Below, one piece after another: positions 2,315-14,849 of a stretch of 47,007 bases of DNA. The notes under the pieces are model-generated. The model had not been told where the DNA came from. It did not search any database and saw nothing but the letters and a program-made list of their open reading frames with translations. This stretch comes from an uncultured archaeon. Its GTDB lineage: Archaea; Asgardarchaeota; Lokiarchaeia; Sigyniarchaeales; SOKP01. The stretch spans positions 1-47,007 of the forward strand of contig CAZWEM010000038.1 of NCBI GenBank assembly GCA_964632315.1, given 5' to 3'. Position numbers and translations under genes: made by a program. The first letter of the stretch is position 1; each line of letters begins with the position of its first letter.

Positions 2315-2866
2315 TTAATTAAAAATATTTATAAACATAATAAGAGCTAGGGGAGTTAAGAAATCCAAGAGGGATGTTGTAAAAGGAATTAAAAAATTGT
2401 TAGGATCCTTTCCTCTTTTAAATAAAAATACTGAAGAAGTAAAAAGAAAGACAAACATTATTCCAAAAAGGATTATAATTGTTATAATGATAATTACCAC
2501 AATTAAAAAAGGATTAACTATTTGTATTCCAGTCATTAGTCCGATACTATATCCTAGTATTATTAAAGAAATCATACTTAATAAAATTGTAATTAAAAGC
2601 CCTAAAAAATCCTCTCTCAATCTTTCTGATTTTTGAATTTTGGGAGGTAAACTTCCAATGTAAAGATGAGAAGTTAGACGAGAAGTTAAAACTGTTGAGA
2701 TATCTCCAATCAACGAATTTAAAGAAGGAAGGACTAATAAGATTATAGGGAAACTATATAATATCGCATCATTAAATGAAAGAAATGTACCCGTAAAAAC
2801 ACCTATTATTGTCGACAATATTACTATGATAATTGATTCTTTGAATATCTTTTTAAAATACTCCAA
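2315..2866 (-). CDS. MgtE-family divalent cation transporter membrane subunit
   Basis: About five TM helices; GDISTVLTSRLTS and GKDPNNFLIPFTTSLLD motifs; TTG start preceded by SD-like GGGGTG. Confidence 0.85.
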   Translation of the reverse strand: MEYFKKIFKESIIIVILSTIIGVFTGTFLSFNDAILYSFPIILLVLPSLNSLIGDISTVLTSRLTSHLYIGSLPPKIQKSERLREDFLGLLITILLSMISLIILGYSIGLMTGIQIVNPFLIVVIIIITIIILFGIMFVFLFTSSVFLFKRGKDPNNFLIPFTTSLLDFLTPLALIMFINIFN

Positions 2867-3418
2867 TTAGGGCACCCCCAAAATAATAATTGTAATATAA
2901 AAGCTTAAAACCGTAGAGAAATCACCAATCGCAGTCATGATTGGACCAACCACATTATTAGGATCTAATCCGTATTTAAAAGCAAATATGTTCAAAAGAG
3001 TGGAACATGGTACTGTAATCAATAGTGTCATTAAAATAGAAATGATTGGTAAAAAAAATAGGGTAATAAGTTTTAATTCCAATCTTATAAAAAATGTATT
3101 AAGTAGGATCGCAGCAATTCCAATTATGCTGGATGTTGTTAAAGATAAACTTAATGTTGCTAGTGCATTTTCAAGCCATGATCTAAAATTAAACTCTCCA
3201 ATAATGATATCTCTTGAAGTTCTGGCAATGAATGGTCCACTAACATTTCCACGCATTGAAAGTAATGCGGGAATAATGAGTATTAGAATTGGAAAACTTG
3301 AAAAATTTAAAATTAAGATTGATAGAATGGTACCACCAAGAAGATCTCCAATAATTGAGACAATTTCTGAAGGAAATACTTCTCTAATAACCTTTCCTTT
3401 AGAATCTTGCTTTTCCAT
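2867..3418 (-). CDS. MgtE-family divalent cation transporter membrane subunit
   Basis: PALLSMRGNV and GLDPNNVVGPIMTAIGD MgtE motifs. Confidence 0.85.
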   Translation of the reverse strand: MEKQDSKGKVIREVFPSEIVSIIGDLLGGTILSILILNFSSFPILILIIPALLSMRGNVSGPFIARTSRDIIIGEFNFRSWLENALATLSLSLTTSSIIGIAAILLNTFFIRLELKLITLFFLPIISILMTLLITVPCSTLLNIFAFKYGLDPNNVVGPIMTAIGDFSTVLSFYITIIILGVP

Positions 3419-3681: not shown

Positions 3682-4443
3682 TTATTTTATTTTAGAGCCA
3701 CATTCAGCACAATAAGAACCATAATCTGATGCTTTGGCTCCACACATTGGACAAAAGTTACCTATTTCTGAATTCTCTTGAGATATAACCACACTCGAAG
3801 AACGTGAGTTTGAATTAACTACTTGTACTACTTGTTCGACCGGATTTGGTATTGTAATTTGACTTAGTTTACTAAGTTTAAAGTATCCAACTATCCTGAA
3901 AATGAACCCAATTATTATAGTAATACCAAACATGAAAAGGCTATAAAGTAATGCACTGGTTTCAAGATTATCGACACCTTCAACTGTATCCCTTAATATT
4001 AGACTTGGAAGCATTTTTTCATTTTCTTTTAAAAATAAATTCAAGTTTTTCCATGCATTTTTCTCAGTCGCGAATGATGAAATCATCAAAATAAAGCCCA
4101 TAAGCAATAATAAAGCACCTATTAGGATTGTGATATAAATTCTCTGAAAAGGTACTAATAATCCAACTGCAATAAAAATCCCTCCTGGAATTAGGCTAAA
4201 TAGCGCAAGAAATCCTCTTGTTATTGATGAAACCATTTTTGACCGATATAACTCAAGAGCTTGATCATTCAAGGAGTAATTGATTAGTTTAATATTTTTT
4301 AAAGCATTATACATAAACACAAGATAAAGTATTAAAGCAATAGGGCCGATAGCGGGGATTAAAGAGATTAGCATAAATATTGCTACATTTTGAATGTTCT
4401 TTCCAAATTCTCGGAGCTCCACATAAACAGAATTATTCCACAT
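3682..4443 (-). CDS. Membrane protein with C-terminal zinc ribbon
   Basis: Several hydrophobic helices; C-terminal CPMCG..YCAECG. Confidence 0.75.
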   Translation of the reverse strand: MWNNSVYVELREFGKNIQNVAIFMLISLIPAIGPIALILYLVFMYNALKNIKLINYSLNDQALELYRSKMVSSITRGFLALFSLIPGGIFIAVGLLVPFQRIYITILIGALLLLMGFILMISSFATEKNAWKNLNLFLKENEKMLPSLILRDTVEGVDNLETSALLYSLFMFGITIIIGFIFRIVGYFKLSKLSQITIPNPVEQVVQVVNSNSRSSSVVISQENSEIGNFCPMCGAKASDYGSYCAECGSKIK

Positions 4444-11356: not shown

Positions 11357-11653
11357 TTACGAGCTGACAAGTTGGAACAGAATCGAGGCATGTGGAATAA
11401 AAAATTGATCTCCCTTTTTTATGACAACAGTATGGAAATATTCCGCCAAACCTAAAAATCCACGGATTACAGATTCATCTTCTTCAAATTTAAAGACTAC
11501 TTTAGCAATTGCGGCACTCGTACCAAAATTTACCTTATCGTAAACTCGCTCATCAATTTCCGCAGAAATGACGCCAATTCAATTCAATAACGGTATTTTG
11601 AGTTCGTTTACTATTTCATAAACCCTTTTGATAAATAACTCACGTTTTGGAAT
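11357..11653 (-). CDS. Small hypothetical protein interrupted by a 30-nt stop-containing segment (88 aa if removed); start ATT 11653 or TTG 11674
   Basis: Manual translation IPKRELFIKRVYEIVNELKIPL[LN*IGVISAE]IDERVYDKVNFGTSAAIAKVVFKFEEDESVIRGFLGLAEYFHTVVIKKGDQFFIPHASILFQLVSS*. SD-like GGTGG lies 6 nt before the ATT. The paralogous fragment at 4.6 kb shows many synonymous differences. Confidence 0.7.
11558..11587 (-). other. Candidate 30-nt archaeal-type (relaxed bulge-helix-bulge) mRNA intron
   Basis: UUGAAUUGAAUUGGCGUCAUUUCUGCGGAA contains the in-frame UGA (11581-11579). Central helix CCGU/GCGG is followed by UA^U and AA^A; cutting after the second nucleotide of each removes exactly 30 nt and restores the frame. 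Confidence 0.55.
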
Positions 11654-12032
11654 CGTAAACCACCATATCTTCAATCTTTTTGTATTTTCTTTCGATATTT
11701 CACTTAAAATTCAAATTTTAAAATATCTATTATTTTGGTAATTTAATGAAATATGATATATAATAATATTAGATTTTGTATTTTTAATTATATTTTTTTT
11801 GATTCTCATTTATTTTTTAAGATTAAATCATAGGAAATAGTGTTAAAGGAAAATGATACTATTTAGGTTTTATAATTTTGATATAATATGTGGATATCAG
11901 TTATCTTGTATTTTGTTCTCTCCTTTATACGAAAAATATAAAATTATAAATGAAAATTAATATAATACCATTAAGATTATAAAATATATATTTTCCTATT
12001 TCTGAAAAAAATTTAGAGGATTTGAATAAACT

Positions 12033-12764
12033 ATGGTATCTAAAGAACAAAAAAAGTTGGAACGCGTTGTAAATTTCATGAAAAAAGGTTTACAATCATT
12101 ATCTGATGATCTTGAAGACACAATCAAAGGAATAAATGATTTCATTAAATCTTTAAATAAGGCTTTAAAGGATTTAAAAGATGTTGAGGTGGTTCCAGAT
12201 GTAAAAACTGTTAGTACTTCCTCTAAAAAGGTGGTTATGGCTAATCCTGAAACAGCAAAAACTGCGGCTGCTAGTACATTGTTCAATTTGTTAAGTGGAG
12301 CAGGTCCAGAAATCTCTACACCTGCAAGCGCCTCAAATATTCCTGCAGCCCCAGCTGCTCCGGCTATGAGTGGCCCTCCAAAAAAACCGGCAAGTGGTCC
12401 TCTCTCAAAACCACCTTCTGGTGGAGGTCCCCCTAAAGCACCTAGTGCACCTAGTACACCGCCGAAAGCACCAGTTGCAGGAGGCCCACAACGCTCAAAT
12501 CTACCCCCAGCACCTAAGTTACCACCTGCCCCCGGTAGTGGCCCTCCAAAGGTACCAGGTGGAAGTACCGTACAAACACCTTCATTTGCAAAAAGACCGA
12601 GTGCTCCTATGGCCCCATCTGGAGGAGTCCCCAAACCTCCTGGAGCATCAACAACACCTCCTCCCTCCCCCGTTACTCCACAGGCAGGTGGAGGCTTGAG
12701 TTCTTTGCGAGATGAGATGCTTGAAGAATTAAACAGACTTAAGAAAATAATGAGGGGAGAATAA
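12033..12764 (+). CDS. Proline-rich protein with N-terminal coiled coil and C-terminal WH2/VASP-like helix
   Basis: Heptad-like first ~50 aa; long Pro/Gly/Ala/Ser region; C-terminus GGGLSSLRDEMLEELNRLKKIMRGE. Confidence 0.8.
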   Translation: MVSKEQKKLERVVNFMKKGLQSLSDDLEDTIKGINDFIKSLNKALKDLKDVEVVPDVKTVSTSSKKVVMANPETAKTAAASTLFNLLSGAGPEISTPASASNIPAAPAAPAMSGPPKKPASGPLSKPPSGGGPPKAPSAPSTPPKAPVAGGPQRSNLPPAPKLPPAPGSGPPKVPGGSTVQTPSFAKRPSAPMAPSGGVPKPPGASTTPPPSPVTPQAGGGLSSLRDEMLEELNRLKKIMRGE

Positions 12765-12859
12765 CTTCTTCACTTTTCTCATTGTTTATCTCAATTTTAT
12801 GATTGAAATTATTCATACCTACTAAAACTTTTTTTATGCTAAAAAGAATCACATAATTA

Positions 12860-13600
12860 ATGACAAGATTCTTAATGTGTGACAAGGATGTTCCAATTGT
12901 GGTTCCAAAAAAGATACTAGTTATTGCTCCTCATCCAGATGATGAAATCATTTCATGTGGAGGTACTATAATGAAATACCAAAAATTAGGCTCAGAAATA
13001 ATTATTGTTGTAGCTACACCAGGTATAGGAGGATATGCACAACTTTCTCAAAAAGAGAGCGTAATAGAACGTAGACACGAGGAATTAGCTAATGTAAAAA
13101 AGATTTTAAATTGCACCATAATTGAACTAAATTACGAAGATCTAATGGTAACAAGAAAAAAAGTTGCGACCATGACCAATTTGATCAGGGACCAACAACC
13201 ACAAGTGATCCTGATGCCTCATTTTTCAGATTTTCACAGAGTTCATAGACATTTATCCTATATTTGTAGGGAAGCAATTTATCACTGTACCACTGGAAAA
13301 GCATATGGGGGACATGAAAGAAATTGGATTCCTTTTGGAGTATATTATTATGAATCTCCCTCATGTAAATTTCAATACGTCGAAGGAAATGTTTTCCTGA
13401 TTGTCGATATTTCAAAATTTTGGAACGAAAAAGAAGAAATATTTAATCACGTATATTTTTCACAAAGGGAAGTATTAGAACGAGTAGTTGAATGGGCTAA
13501 AGATACAGCAACATTAAGAGGAAATGAGATTAATTCTCTATACGGAGAAGCTTTTATTCCGGAAACTACATATACTCCAATGAAATTGTTACTCGTATAA
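12860..13600 (+). CDS. PIG-L/LmbE family N-acetylglucosaminyl deacetylase
   Basis: APHPDDE, RRHEE, DFHRVH and YGEAF motifs. Confidence 0.9.
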   Translation: MTRFLMCDKDVPIVVPKKILVIAPHPDDEIISCGGTIMKYQKLGSEIIIVVATPGIGGYAQLSQKESVIERRHEELANVKKILNCTIIELNYEDLMVTRKKVATMTNLIRDQQPQVILMPHFSDFHRVHRHLSYICREAIYHCTTGKAYGGHERNWIPFGVYYYESPSCKFQYVEGNVFLIVDISKFWNEKEEIFNHVYFSQREVLERVVEWAKDTATLRGNEINSLYGEAFIPETTYTPMKLLLV

Positions 13601-13733
13601 TTAATTGCTTGCATACGATCCAAAAATAAAATTATTTGATCTTTCAAGAAAAACAAAAGATCAATAGAAAATCATAAATTATTTAACGCAATTGTATGGA
13701 TATAGAATAAAAATTTTTAGATAGTGTAACTTA

Positions 13734-14849
13734 ATGAGAAATCTCACTGTTGTGCTTGATATTGGACAGTTTTCCTCAAAAGCAGGCTTTGCTGGTGAAG
13801 ATTTTCCCTCTCAAGTATTTTTTACAATAGTGGGTAAACCAAAATATCAACAAGTTAATTTTGATATAGGGATTCCTTCCCAGGATGAGTTTTACGTTGG
13901 GGATGAAATTCAATCATTAGGACTTTATAAAATTACATATCCTATTGAAAAAGGAATAATTCAAGATTGGGTTTCTTTTGAGAAAATAATAGATTATATC
14001 TTTTACAGTTTAAGAGTTGATCCAACCTTAGTTAATCTACTATTTGCCGTGCATCCTTTGTTTCCGCAACAAGATTTAAAAAGATTATTTGAATTGTTTT
14101 TAGAACAGTATCAATGTAATGCTTTTTATCCTGTACTAGATTCAATGCTTACTCTATATGCTGGAGGTTTTCAAACGGGCTTGGTAATAGAGATAGGAGA
14201 TAGTATCACTCGGATAGTTCCTATTTATGAGGGGTACAAGATAAACCATGCAATACGGATCTTAGACATTGGTGGTCGTACATTAACTCGTTACATGGAA
14301 AAAATTTTAGGAGAGATTGGTTTTTCAGCAGATTCTTCAATTAGAAGAGAATTAGTTAGGGCTTTAAAAGAAAAAGCTTGTTTTGTATCGCTTGATTATA
14401 AAGAAGATATTAAAAGAAAAGAACAATATGAAAAACCTTACTCTTTGCCTGATGGATCTACGATCATATTAAATAGGGAAAGATTTGATGTTCCTGAATT
14501 ACTTTTCAATCCTAGTTTGGAACTAGAAGAAGATCCATTACCTAAAGCCATTTTAGATGTCATTGAGAATTGTGATTTAGATATACGTCCAGAATTGTTA
14601 AACAACATTTTTTTATCTGGAGGTTCTTCAATGTTTCCAAATATTAAGTCTAGAATTTATCAAGAATTAGAACTTGAATTAGCAAGAAGAAAGAAAAAGA
14701 CTCACTCAATCAAAATTATAGCTCCACGAGAGAGAACTTTTTCAGTATGGGTAGGCGGTTCTATTTTAGCTATGATTCCAGAATTTTCTAAAAATTGGAT
14801 TAGCCGAGCTCAATATTTTACAGATGGGATTCCAGATAATCTCTTATGA
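13734..14849 (+). CDS. Actin-family protein (divergent Asgard actin / actin-related protein)
   Basis: KAGFAGEDFP, YVGDE, YPIEKGII, VPIYEGY, KEKACFV, YSLPDG, LSGGSSMFP and SVWVGGSILA are collinear with actin. Confidence 0.95.
   Translation: MRNLTVVLDIGQFSSKAGFAGEDFPSQVFFTIVGKPKYQQVNFDIGIPSQDEFYVGDEIQSLGLYKITYPIEKGIIQDWVSFEKIIDYIFYSLRVDPTLVNLLFAVHPLFPQQDLKRLFELFLEQYQCNAFYPVLDSMLTLYAGGFQTGLVIEIGDSITRIVPIYEGYKINHAIRILDIGGRTLTRYMEKILGEIGFSADSSIRRELVRALKEKACFVSLDYKEDIKRKEQYEKPYSLPDGSTIILNRERFDVPELLFNPSLELEEDPLPKAILDVIENCDLDIRPELLNNIFLSGGSSMFPNIKSRIYQELELELARRKKKTHSIKIIAPRERTFSVWVGGSILAMIPEFSKNWISRAQYFTDGIPDNLL

What the first reader, a model, noticed from the sequence alone, without database searches (positions are those of the whole stretch)
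11558..11587. Candidate tRNA-endonuclease-type (bulge-helix-bulge) intron in a protein-coding mRNA of a probable Asgard archaeon
Seen: a minus-strand frame reads ...KIPL-LN*IGVISAE-IDERVYDK..., open and protein-like on both sides of a single in-frame TGA (11581-11579). The RNA can pair CCGU (11593-11590) with GCGG (11563-11560) as a 4-bp central helix, followed on each strand by three unpaired nucleotides (UAU, AAA). An inner stem GAAUUGA/UCAUUUC (one mismatch) and exon-exon pairings (CUCA/UGAG, GUAAAC/GUUUAC) flank it. Established: the archaeal splicing endonuclease EndA cuts after the second nucleotide of each bulge and RtcB ligates; archaeal mRNA introns of this kind are best known from crenarchaeal cbf5. 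Applying that rule removes exactly 30 nt, deletes the stop and gives in-frame CCG UUA|AUU GAU (P-L-I-D), an 88-aa protein. Inference: a spliced mRNA intron that makes expression depend on splicing, conceptually like non-spliceosomal HAC1/XBP1 splicing. Caveats: pairing next to the bulges is imperfect (relaxed BHL/HBh-type). Alternatives are UGA recoding or bypassing aided by a competing hairpin (CGUCAUUUC-UGCG-GAAAUUGAUG), a pseudogene insertion, or an assembly error.
Basis: partly seen in the sequence, partly recalled or inferred. Interest (0 to 1): 0.92.

Follow-up and report, generated by a model that had tools for sequence, protein, structure and literature searches.

The report
tRNA-type mini-intron in Asgard protein gene
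A 30-base insert carrying a stop codon splits a small, highly conserved gene of a Loki-type (Asgard) archaeon. It has the RNA shape that the tRNA-splicing enzyme cuts, and relatives carry matching mini-introns at this and two other sites of the same gene, so the message almost certainly has to be spliced, something printed so far for only one archaeal protein gene (cbf5).

Summary
The minus-strand gene 11653..11357 is broken by one in-frame TGA inside a 30-nt insert (11587..11558).

- **Homologs:** More than 370 Asgard homologs, mostly exactly 88 aa, read KIPL-IDER and lack exactly these 10 codons.
- **Geometry:** The insert ends sit in a bulge-helix-bulge core: a 4-bp helix CCGU/GCGG and two 3-nt bulges. 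Cutting after the second bulge base gives the homologs' junction. A random 30-nt spacing in this genome does this 2.4% of the time.
- **Other introns:** I found 29 more in this gene family, 30 in 24 gene copies. Seven are at this site, 19 at ELFI|KRVY and 4 at HTV|VIK. Three copies carry all three. Lengths are 29-41 nt and some shift the frame. All 30 obey the same cutting rule, with compensatory changes in the helices.
- **Selection and machinery:** The exons are under purifying selection. The genome has alpha- and beta-like EndA genes and RtcB.

No RNA evidence could be obtained.

The scan has already noted the same kind of intron in other genes of this genome (histone, gyrB, chelatase and others). 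Papers in the library searched report such mRNA introns only for crenarchaeal cbf5.

The parts
11588..11653 (-). Exon 1 (22 codons, IPKRELFIKRVYEIVNELKIPL). The first codon is ATT at 11653-11651, where most homologs have ATG.
11558..11587 (-). 30-nt intron in phase 0. Excising 11588-11559 gives the same product.
   Evidence: Absent from homologs. BHB cut rule.
11357..11557 (-). Exon 2 (66 codons, IDERVYDK...LVSS, plus the stop codon at 11359-11357)
11579..11581 (-). In-frame TGA inside the intron. It would end an unspliced product after 24 codons.
11590..11593 (-). Central helix H, 5' strand (CCGU, exon 1)
   Evidence: 28 of 28 cells paired across 7 same-site introns
11560..11563 (-). Central helix H, 3' strand (GCGG, intron)
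11587..11589 (-). 5' bulge UAU. The predicted cut lies between 11588 and 11587.
   Evidence: Geometry. Cut rule between bulge bases 2 and 3 from PMC2738675.
11557..11559 (-). 3' bulge AAA. The predicted cut lies between 11558 and 11557.
11565..11585 (-). Inner helix h' (11585-11579 pairs with 11571-11565, one U.U mismatch) with the 7-nt loop 11578-11572. The pair next to the bulge (11586/11564) is also U.U.
11540..11556 (-). 3'-exon side of the outer pairings: U11556 with A11594 (the only in-register h pair), UGAG 11552-11549 with CUCA 11602-11599, and GUUUAC 11545-11540 with GUAAAC 11611-11606
11660..11664 (-). Shine-Dalgarno-like GGTGG, 6 nt upstream of the ATT codon
   Evidence: GGTG lies 6-10 nt before the first codon in the orthologs, five of which also have ATT or ATA there

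Best explanation
The 30 nt at 11587..11558 are a bulge-helix-bulge (archaeal, tRNA-type) intron inside the mRNA of a conserved 88-aa Promethearchaeota-specific protein of unknown function.

Proposed mechanism: in the transcript, the last exon bases CCGU pair with GCGG near the intron's 3' end, and a 3-nt bulge follows on each strand. The splicing endonuclease EndA, here probably an alpha-beta heterotetramer, cuts after the second base of each bulge. RtcB then joins the exons to give ...CCG UUA|AUU GAU... (P-L-I-D), and the intron is released, probably as a 30-nt circle. Without splicing, translation stops at UGA after 24 codons.

Shown here: the insert, its exact absence from homologs, the geometry, its recurrence and covariation in other genomes, purifying selection on the exons, and the presence of the enzyme genes.

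Inferred: that cleavage and ligation actually happen, and by these enzymes.
For: 1. Homologs lack exactly the 10 codons. More than 370 proteins, mostly 88 aa, do so, and the columns that are invariant across the 17 aligned sequences, the window's copy included, flank the insert on both sides. In the genus search, 36 of the 41 other species had a match, and the window's copy was the only ortholog listed with a stop inside the match or with an insert at this site.
2. The BHB rule reproduces the homology-defined junction, against a chance rate of 2.4% per register.
3. Six more introns sit at the same site (29-41 nt) in G105, three other genome records and two metagenome contigs. Their central helix is paired in 28 of 28 cells, against 7-12 of 28 when the partner is slid. 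The synonymous third base of the Pro codon (G or A) covaries 7 of 7 with the intron base opposite it (C or U). Among the five of near-equal length, 92% of cells pair, four pairs show double changes, and 0 of 500 shuffles reach the covariation score.
4. A further 19 introns lie at ELFI|KRVY and 4 at HTV|VIK, all with the same core and exact frame restoration. Three gene copies hold all three introns. For the ELFI|KRVY site, 90.8% of cells pair, 10 pairs show double changes, 0 of 500 shuffles match, and slid controls reach 33-56%.
5. Several of these introns are 29, 31, 37, 38 or 41 nt long and shift the frame, so they cannot be translated through.
6. Against intronless orthologs, the window's exons differ at 38-53 synonymous and only 2-9 non-synonymous codons.
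7. The genome has two EndA paralogs. One resembles the crenarchaeal alpha subunit and has Tyr, His and Lys; the other has Ser in place of the His and looks beta-like. It also has RtcB. Asgard EndA is described as the (alpha-beta)2 type with the L1 loop that confers broad specificity (PMC5829648).
8. The intron has no other copy in the genome.
Against: - There is no RNA-level evidence.
- The window's motif is relaxed. The outer helix h has only 1 bp in register, the first h' pair is U.U, and the minimum-free-energy fold shows a 2-nt 3' bulge.
- The fold is no more stable than shuffled sequence, and a competing hairpin dominates the centroid of the short construct.
- RNAalifold on the ELFI|KRVY set recovers h' and an outer helix but not the 4-bp H.
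- No same-species second assembly confirms the insert in DNA.
- The gene begins with ATT rather than ATG.
Confidence: 0.88

Rival explanations
1. The gene is a pseudogene, a once-intact gene recently killed by a 30-nt insertion, and the BHB-like geometry is coincidence.
For: Only this species among 42 in the genus has the insert at this site. It carries a stop codon, the first codon is ATT, and a 44%-identical paralog exists on contig 28. Degenerate copies of the family do exist: a frameshifted paralog in G007.
Against: The geometry has about a 0.1-2% chance. The same site holds structurally equivalent, covarying inserts in six other gene copies. There is no further damage, and every column that is invariant across the 17 aligned sequences is invariant in the window's copy too. 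Synonymous codon differences outnumber non-synonymous ones by about 10 to 1. ATT or ATA starts behind a GGTG motif recur in five other copies that are otherwise intact once their own mini-introns, where present, are removed.
Confidence: 0.05
2. The insert is removed or skipped at the RNA or translation level, but not by EndA/RtcB. Examples would be another nuclease-ligase pair or ribosomal bypassing helped by the hairpin.
For: A hairpin and a stop codon lie shortly after the would-be take-off site, as in T4 gene 60.
Against: The would-be take-off codon and the codon before the resume point do not match (UUA against GAA). In all 30 introns the boundaries sit at fixed positions in two 3-nt bulges 4 bp apart, which is the EndA ruler and not a bypass feature. 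Both enzyme genes are present.
Confidence: 0.03
3. UGA is recoded (selenocysteine or read-through) and the 10 codons are translated.
For: The genome has a tRNA-Sec gene, and Asgard archaea use selenocysteine (PMC4989117 and PMC11227280, listed).
Against: No homolog has any residue at these 10 positions, let alone Cys or Sec. Same-site inserts of 29, 38 and 41 nt change the frame. The insert sequences are not conserved as protein.
Confidence: 0.01
4. The 30 nt are an assembly or sequencing artefact and are not in the real genome.
For: The genome is a metagenome bin of 119 contigs with 8.6% estimated contamination. No reads could be laid on it, and no independent contig with this exact allele was found.
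Against: An artefact would not produce a covarying BHB in register with the reading frame. Independent assemblies from other samples carry equivalent inserts at the same site.
Confidence: 0.02

Closest known systems
BHB intron in the cbf5 (pseudouridine synthase) pre-mRNA of Crenarchaeota (Watanabe 2002; Yoshinari 2006; Yokobori 2009, PMC2738675)
   Same: It is a short intron in a protein-coding mRNA. It has a mostly relaxed bulge-helix-bulge motif, predicted cuts between bulge bases 2 and 3, and a hetero-oligomeric EndA. It is present in some species and cleanly absent in others.
   Different: The gene is different (an 88-aa family of unknown function) and so is the phylum (Asgard/Promethearchaeota). 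There are three intron positions in one 88-codon gene, with up to three introns in one copy, whereas cbf5 has one. For cbf5, spliced cDNA was sequenced; here there is no RNA evidence.
Non-canonical tRNA introns of Asgard archaea and Thermoproteales (bioRxiv 10.64898/2026.10.13.758758; Marck and Grosjean 2003, as cited in that preprint)
   Same: The motif, the size range (tens of nt) and the presumed enzymes are the same. In both cases the exon supplies half of the motif, and there are many gains and losses between related genomes. Aragorn finds only 30 tRNA genes here, 19 of them called with introns.
   Different: The host RNA is an mRNA. The exon half of the helix is made of codons, so it covaries through synonymous sites.
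HAC1/XBP1 unconventional mRNA splicing (IRE1 cleavage; in metazoans ligation by RtcB)
   Same: It is a non-spliceosomal, protein-enzyme excision of a short intron from an mRNA, changing what is translated, with RtcB-type ligation.
   Different: The nuclease and the recognition motif differ. HAC1/XBP1 splicing is a regulated stress switch, and nothing here shows regulation. This is an analogy only.
Translational bypassing (T4 gene 60; byp elements of yeast mitochondria)
   Same: A short, stop-containing, hairpin-forming insert lies in a coding sequence that must be skipped to make the protein.
   Different: Bypassing needs matching take-off and landing codons, which are absent here. The 4-bp helix with two 3-nt bulges has no role in bypassing.

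Membership tests
Archaeal bulge-helix-bulge intron (EndA/RtcB substrate) | A 4-bp central helix formed by the last exon bases and bases near the 3' end of the intron | tested here: met
   CCGU (11593-11590) pairs with GCGG (11563-11560). Across 7 same-site introns, 28 of 28 cells pair, with a G-C to A-U double change.
Archaeal bulge-helix-bulge intron (EndA/RtcB substrate) | Two 3-nt bulges on opposite strands; cutting between bulge bases 2 and 3 yields the mature junction | tested here: met
   The cuts at 11588/11587 and 11558/11557 give P-L-I-D, identical to the intronless homologs. The rule holds for all 30 introns found. The rule itself is taken from PMC2738675.
Archaeal bulge-helix-bulge intron (EndA/RtcB substrate) | Strict hBHBh' form: stable outer (h) and inner (h') helices directly adjoining both bulges | tested here: not met
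   For the window, h has 1 bp in register and h' has 6 of 8 pairs with U.U next to the bulge. It fits the relaxed (HBh'-like) class, which only (alpha-beta)2 or epsilon2 EndA enzymes cut (PMC5829648).
Archaeal bulge-helix-bulge intron (EndA/RtcB substrate) | The host encodes a splicing endonuclease able to cut relaxed motifs, and the RtcB ligase | tested here: met
   There are two EndA paralogs. The contig 28 copy is best matched by crenarchaeal heterotetramer EndA chains (such as 3p1z_B). The contig 8 copy lacks the catalytic His. RtcB is on contig 26. Substrate range was not measured.
Archaeal bulge-helix-bulge intron (EndA/RtcB substrate) | Excision seen in RNA (spliced junction, circular intron) | not testable with these tools
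cbf5 pre-mRNA intron family | Located in the cbf5 gene at the catalytic Asp codon | tested here: not met
   The host gene is an 88-aa Promethearchaeota family with no Pfam match over the cut-off. The mechanism is of the same kind, but this is not the same intron.
Selenoprotein gene (UGA = Sec) | Homologs have Cys or Sec aligned with the UGA | tested here: not met
   The whole 10-codon stretch is absent from the homologs.
Programmed translational bypass | Matching take-off and landing codons flank the gap | tested here: not met
   UUA lies before the gap and GAA before the resume point. Gap lengths and sequences differ between same-site inserts.

The most novel reading that the evidence does not exclude
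Protein-coding genes of Loki-type Asgard archaea are routinely split by heritable EndA/RtcB-spliced micro-introns. These sit at defined positions, persist across genera with compensatory evolution, and are gained and lost like eukaryotic introns, with up to three in one 88-codon gene. On this reading, the closest prokaryotic relatives of eukaryotes already run an obligatory mRNA-splicing layer that could also be used to gate expression.
Probability: 0.65. Interest if true: 0.93.

Novelty: new member of a known kind. Interest (0 to 1): 0.85.

Why it matters
In print, enzymatic (tRNA-type) splicing of archaeal mRNAs rests on a single gene, cbf5, in Crenarchaeota. Here a different gene in Asgard archaea shows 30 such introns at three positions across many species, with covariation between synonymous codon bases and intron bases.

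If RNA data confirm splicing, three things follow:
- Gene callers systematically break or miss such genes in Asgard genomes.
- Split protein genes and obligatory mRNA splicing exist in the lineage nearest to eukaryotes.
- Intron gain, loss and position conservation can be studied in a prokaryote.

It also gives a compact test substrate (an 88-codon gene with one to three introns) for Asgard EndA biochemistry.

Tried and rejected
- **Exact allele in metagenomes:** a search for this allele, spliced or unspliced, found nothing.
- **Thermodynamics:** z-scores of -1.16 and 0.0 show that stability is not evidence.
- **RNAalifold:** on the ELFI|KRVY introns it recovers h' and an outer helix but extends h' instead of forming H. 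Support for H therefore rests on pairing counts and the cut rule.
- **Naive motif scan:** a BHB-core plus ORF-restoring scan of the window gave 848 hits and is useless without homology.
- **Mobility:** the intron has no other copy in the genome, so there is no sign that it is mobile.
- **False leads:** the G013 and G063 partial matches are contig ends. The G007 match is a frameshifted paralog, not an intron. One pattern hit, in a Rubripirellula genome, is chance.
- **Protein function:** no Pfam match passes the cut-off. A confident AlphaFold model (pLDDT 88.8) has no Foldseek match in the PDB. The Atlas shows only its own Promethearchaeota cluster.
- **Recoding:** Sec recoding and bypassing were considered and rejected, as set out under the rival explanations.

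Full report
**Observation.** On the minus strand, one frame is open from 11698 to 11357 apart from a single TGA at 11581-11579. The minimum-free-energy fold of 11615-11536 reproduces them: the two exon-exon helices, the CCGU/GCGG helix and the inner stem. The fold is no more stable than shuffled sequence (z = -1.16; 0.0 for a 54-nt construct, where a competing hairpin dominates the centroid). Energy is therefore not evidence.

**The insert is absent from homologs.** Reading the TGA through and searching gave more than 370 proteins, all from Asgard (Promethearchaeota/Lokiarchaeota-labelled) sources and mostly exactly 88 aa. In the alignment they read ...NELKIPL-IDERVYDK... and lack exactly the ten codons of the window. 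About 60% of the columns are invariant, and they are invariant in the window's copy too. The insert is therefore 11587..11558, or equivalently 11588..11559. In the window's own genome this is the only close copy; a 44%-identical paralog lies on contig 28. In the genus search, 36 of the 41 other species genomes had a match, and none of the orthologs listed has an insert at this site.

**Geometry.** With the last exon base at 11588 and the last intron base at 11558, exon bases -5 to -2 (CCGU) pair with intron bases -5 to -2 (GCGG). Each cut falls after the second base of a 3-nt bulge. This is the rule used for archaeal introns, cbf5 included (PMC2738675).
- At a fixed 30-nt spacing in this genome, such a helix occurs at 2.4% of positions.
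- A helix with at least three G-C pairs occurs at 0.024%.
- A helix plus an inner stem of at least 6 of 8 pairs occurs at 0.115%.
- The other possible register does not form the helix.
- The motif is relaxed: the outer helix has one pair in register, and the inner stem starts with U.U.

**More introns in the same gene family.** tblastn over the fetched loci showed that other species carry short, stop-containing or frame-shifting inserts in this gene. A class-wide search (161 genomes, 144 with the gene), degenerate-pattern scans of metagenome and genome contigs and a script that tests every BHB-core cut gave 30 introns in 24 gene copies:
- seven at KIPL|IDER: the window, G105, three other genome records and two metagenome contigs, 29-41 nt;
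- nineteen at ELFI|KRVY, 29-37 nt, including two in a paralog;
- four at HTV|VIK, 29-31 nt.

Three copies (L057, L058, L059) carry all three introns, and two (G105, L060) carry two. In all 30, a 4-bp helix with two 3-nt bulges sits so that the standard cut restores the conserved protein exactly. Inserts of 29, 31, 37, 38 and 41 nt change the frame, so they cannot be translated through.

**Covariation.**
- *KIPL|IDER site:* the central helix pairs in 28 of 28 cells, against 7-12 of 28 when the partner is slid by 1-3 nt. Its third pair is G-C in three copies and A-U in four, so the synonymous third base of the proline codon changes together with the intron base opposite it. For the five introns of near-equal length, 92% of cells pair, four pairs show changes on both sides, no shuffle in 500 reaches the covariation score, and slid controls give 25-42%.
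- *ELFI|KRVY site (14 sequences):* 90.8% of cells pair. Ten of 17 pairs show double changes, eight of them among the nine inner-stem pairs, one in the central helix and one in the outer helix. No shuffle in 500 matches, and slid controls give 33-56%.
- *Caveat:* RNAalifold on that alignment recovers the inner stem and an outer helix but extends the inner stem instead of forming the 4-bp helix. Related sequences also inflate shuffle tests.

**Is the window's gene alive?** Against nine intronless orthologs (73-83% nucleotide identity), the spliced reading frame differs at 38-53 synonymous but only 2-9 non-synonymous codons. The first codon is ATT, where most homologs have ATG. The same ATT or ATA, 6-7 nt behind a GGTG motif, recurs in five other copies that are otherwise intact once their own mini-introns, where present, are removed. 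This looks like a non-canonical start, not decay. An in-frame TTG at 11674 is an alternative start.

**Machinery.** The genome encodes two EndA paralogs.
- The contig 28 copy is closest to crenarchaeal heterotetramer EndA chains (such as 3p1z_B) and keeps Tyr, His and Lys.
- The contig 8 copy has Ser in place of the His and looks like a structural beta subunit.
- RtcB is present.
- Asgard EndA has been described as (alpha-beta)2 with the L1 loop that gives broad specificity (PMC5829648).
- Aragorn finds only 30 tRNA genes, 19 of them called with introns. This agrees with a 2026 preprint on heavily interrupted Asgard tRNA genes.

**Alternatives.** Each is set out in full under the rival explanations.
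- *Sec or read-through:* the genome has tRNA-Sec, but homologs have nothing at these positions.
- *Bypassing:* the take-off and landing codons do not match.
- *Pseudogene:* contradicted by the geometry, the recurrence, the covariation and the selection pattern.
- *Assembly artefact:* cannot be excluded directly for this allele, but independent assemblies carry equivalent inserts at the same site.

**Novelty.** Five literature searches found mRNA introns of this kind only for crenarchaeal cbf5, and no paper on Asgard protein genes. Absence from this library is not proof. The scan's earlier notes report the same kind of micro-intron in other genes of this same genome (histone, gyrB, chelatase, acetyl-CoA synthetase, an E2, gap, mvhD). 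I did not test those. They agree with a genome-wide phenomenon.

**Limits.** No RNA or read-level data were available. The protein's function is unknown: a confident model has no PDB match. Whether splicing is constitutive or regulated is open.

Noticed in passing
window 11651-11664 (-); also L010, L021, L033, L034, L050, L053: The conserved first codon of this gene is ATT or ATA instead of ATG in the window and at least six other gene copies (one of them a paralog), each 6-7 nt behind a GGTG(G) Shine-Dalgarno-like motif. This suggests a recurrent AUU/AUA initiation codon.
   Followed up: partly
L023 (G019), L046 (G120), L047 (G116), first about 45 nt of the gene: Three species share the same odd N-terminus. 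ATG ATT is followed by a 4-nt and then a 1-nt extra stretch, so M-I, PKRELF and FIKRVYE lie in three different frames. The second shift sits exactly at the ELFI|KRVY intron site. It could be imprecise intron loss, frameshifting, or use of an internal GTG start.
   Followed up: partly
L056 about 4228-4262 (Ga0209977_10007768): This metagenome copy, which has the KIPL|IDER intron, also lacks one T inside the ELF-I codons (CTCTCATT instead of CTCTTCATT). That is a frameshift at the other intron site. It may be a sequencing error or a scar of intron loss.
   Followed up: no
L057, L058, L059: Three copies of an 88-codon gene carry three BHB mini-introns each, about one intron per 30 codons.
   Followed up: yes
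window 2315-3418 (-): Two adjacent 183-aa open frames with similar membrane-protein sequence, both containing a D-P-N-N motif, are separated by a single stop (...LGVP*LEYF...). They may be two genes, or one gene interrupted.
   Followed up: no
window 12033-14849 (+): Next to the intron-bearing gene lie a 243-aa protein with a long Pro/Ala/Gly-rich middle and coiled-coil-like ends, a PIG-L deacetylase, and an actin homolog (Pfam Actin, E = 8.7e-91). This is an Asgard-typical neighbourhood.
   Followed up: partly
G000 contig C35 2538-2630: Aragorn calls a tRNA-Sec (anticodon tca) gene, so the organism probably uses selenocysteine elsewhere.
   Followed up: no
window about 11745-11758 (-) and the matching upstream regions of L006-L009 and L056: A conserved upstream word (CATATTTCATT) lies 50-100 nt before the start of the orthologs. 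It is a likely promoter or regulatory element, and it sits about 35 nt further upstream in the window.
   Followed up: no
G000 contig C6 86175-86216: A 41-nt stretch is 86% identical to part of exon 2 (E = 3e-5).
   Followed up: no
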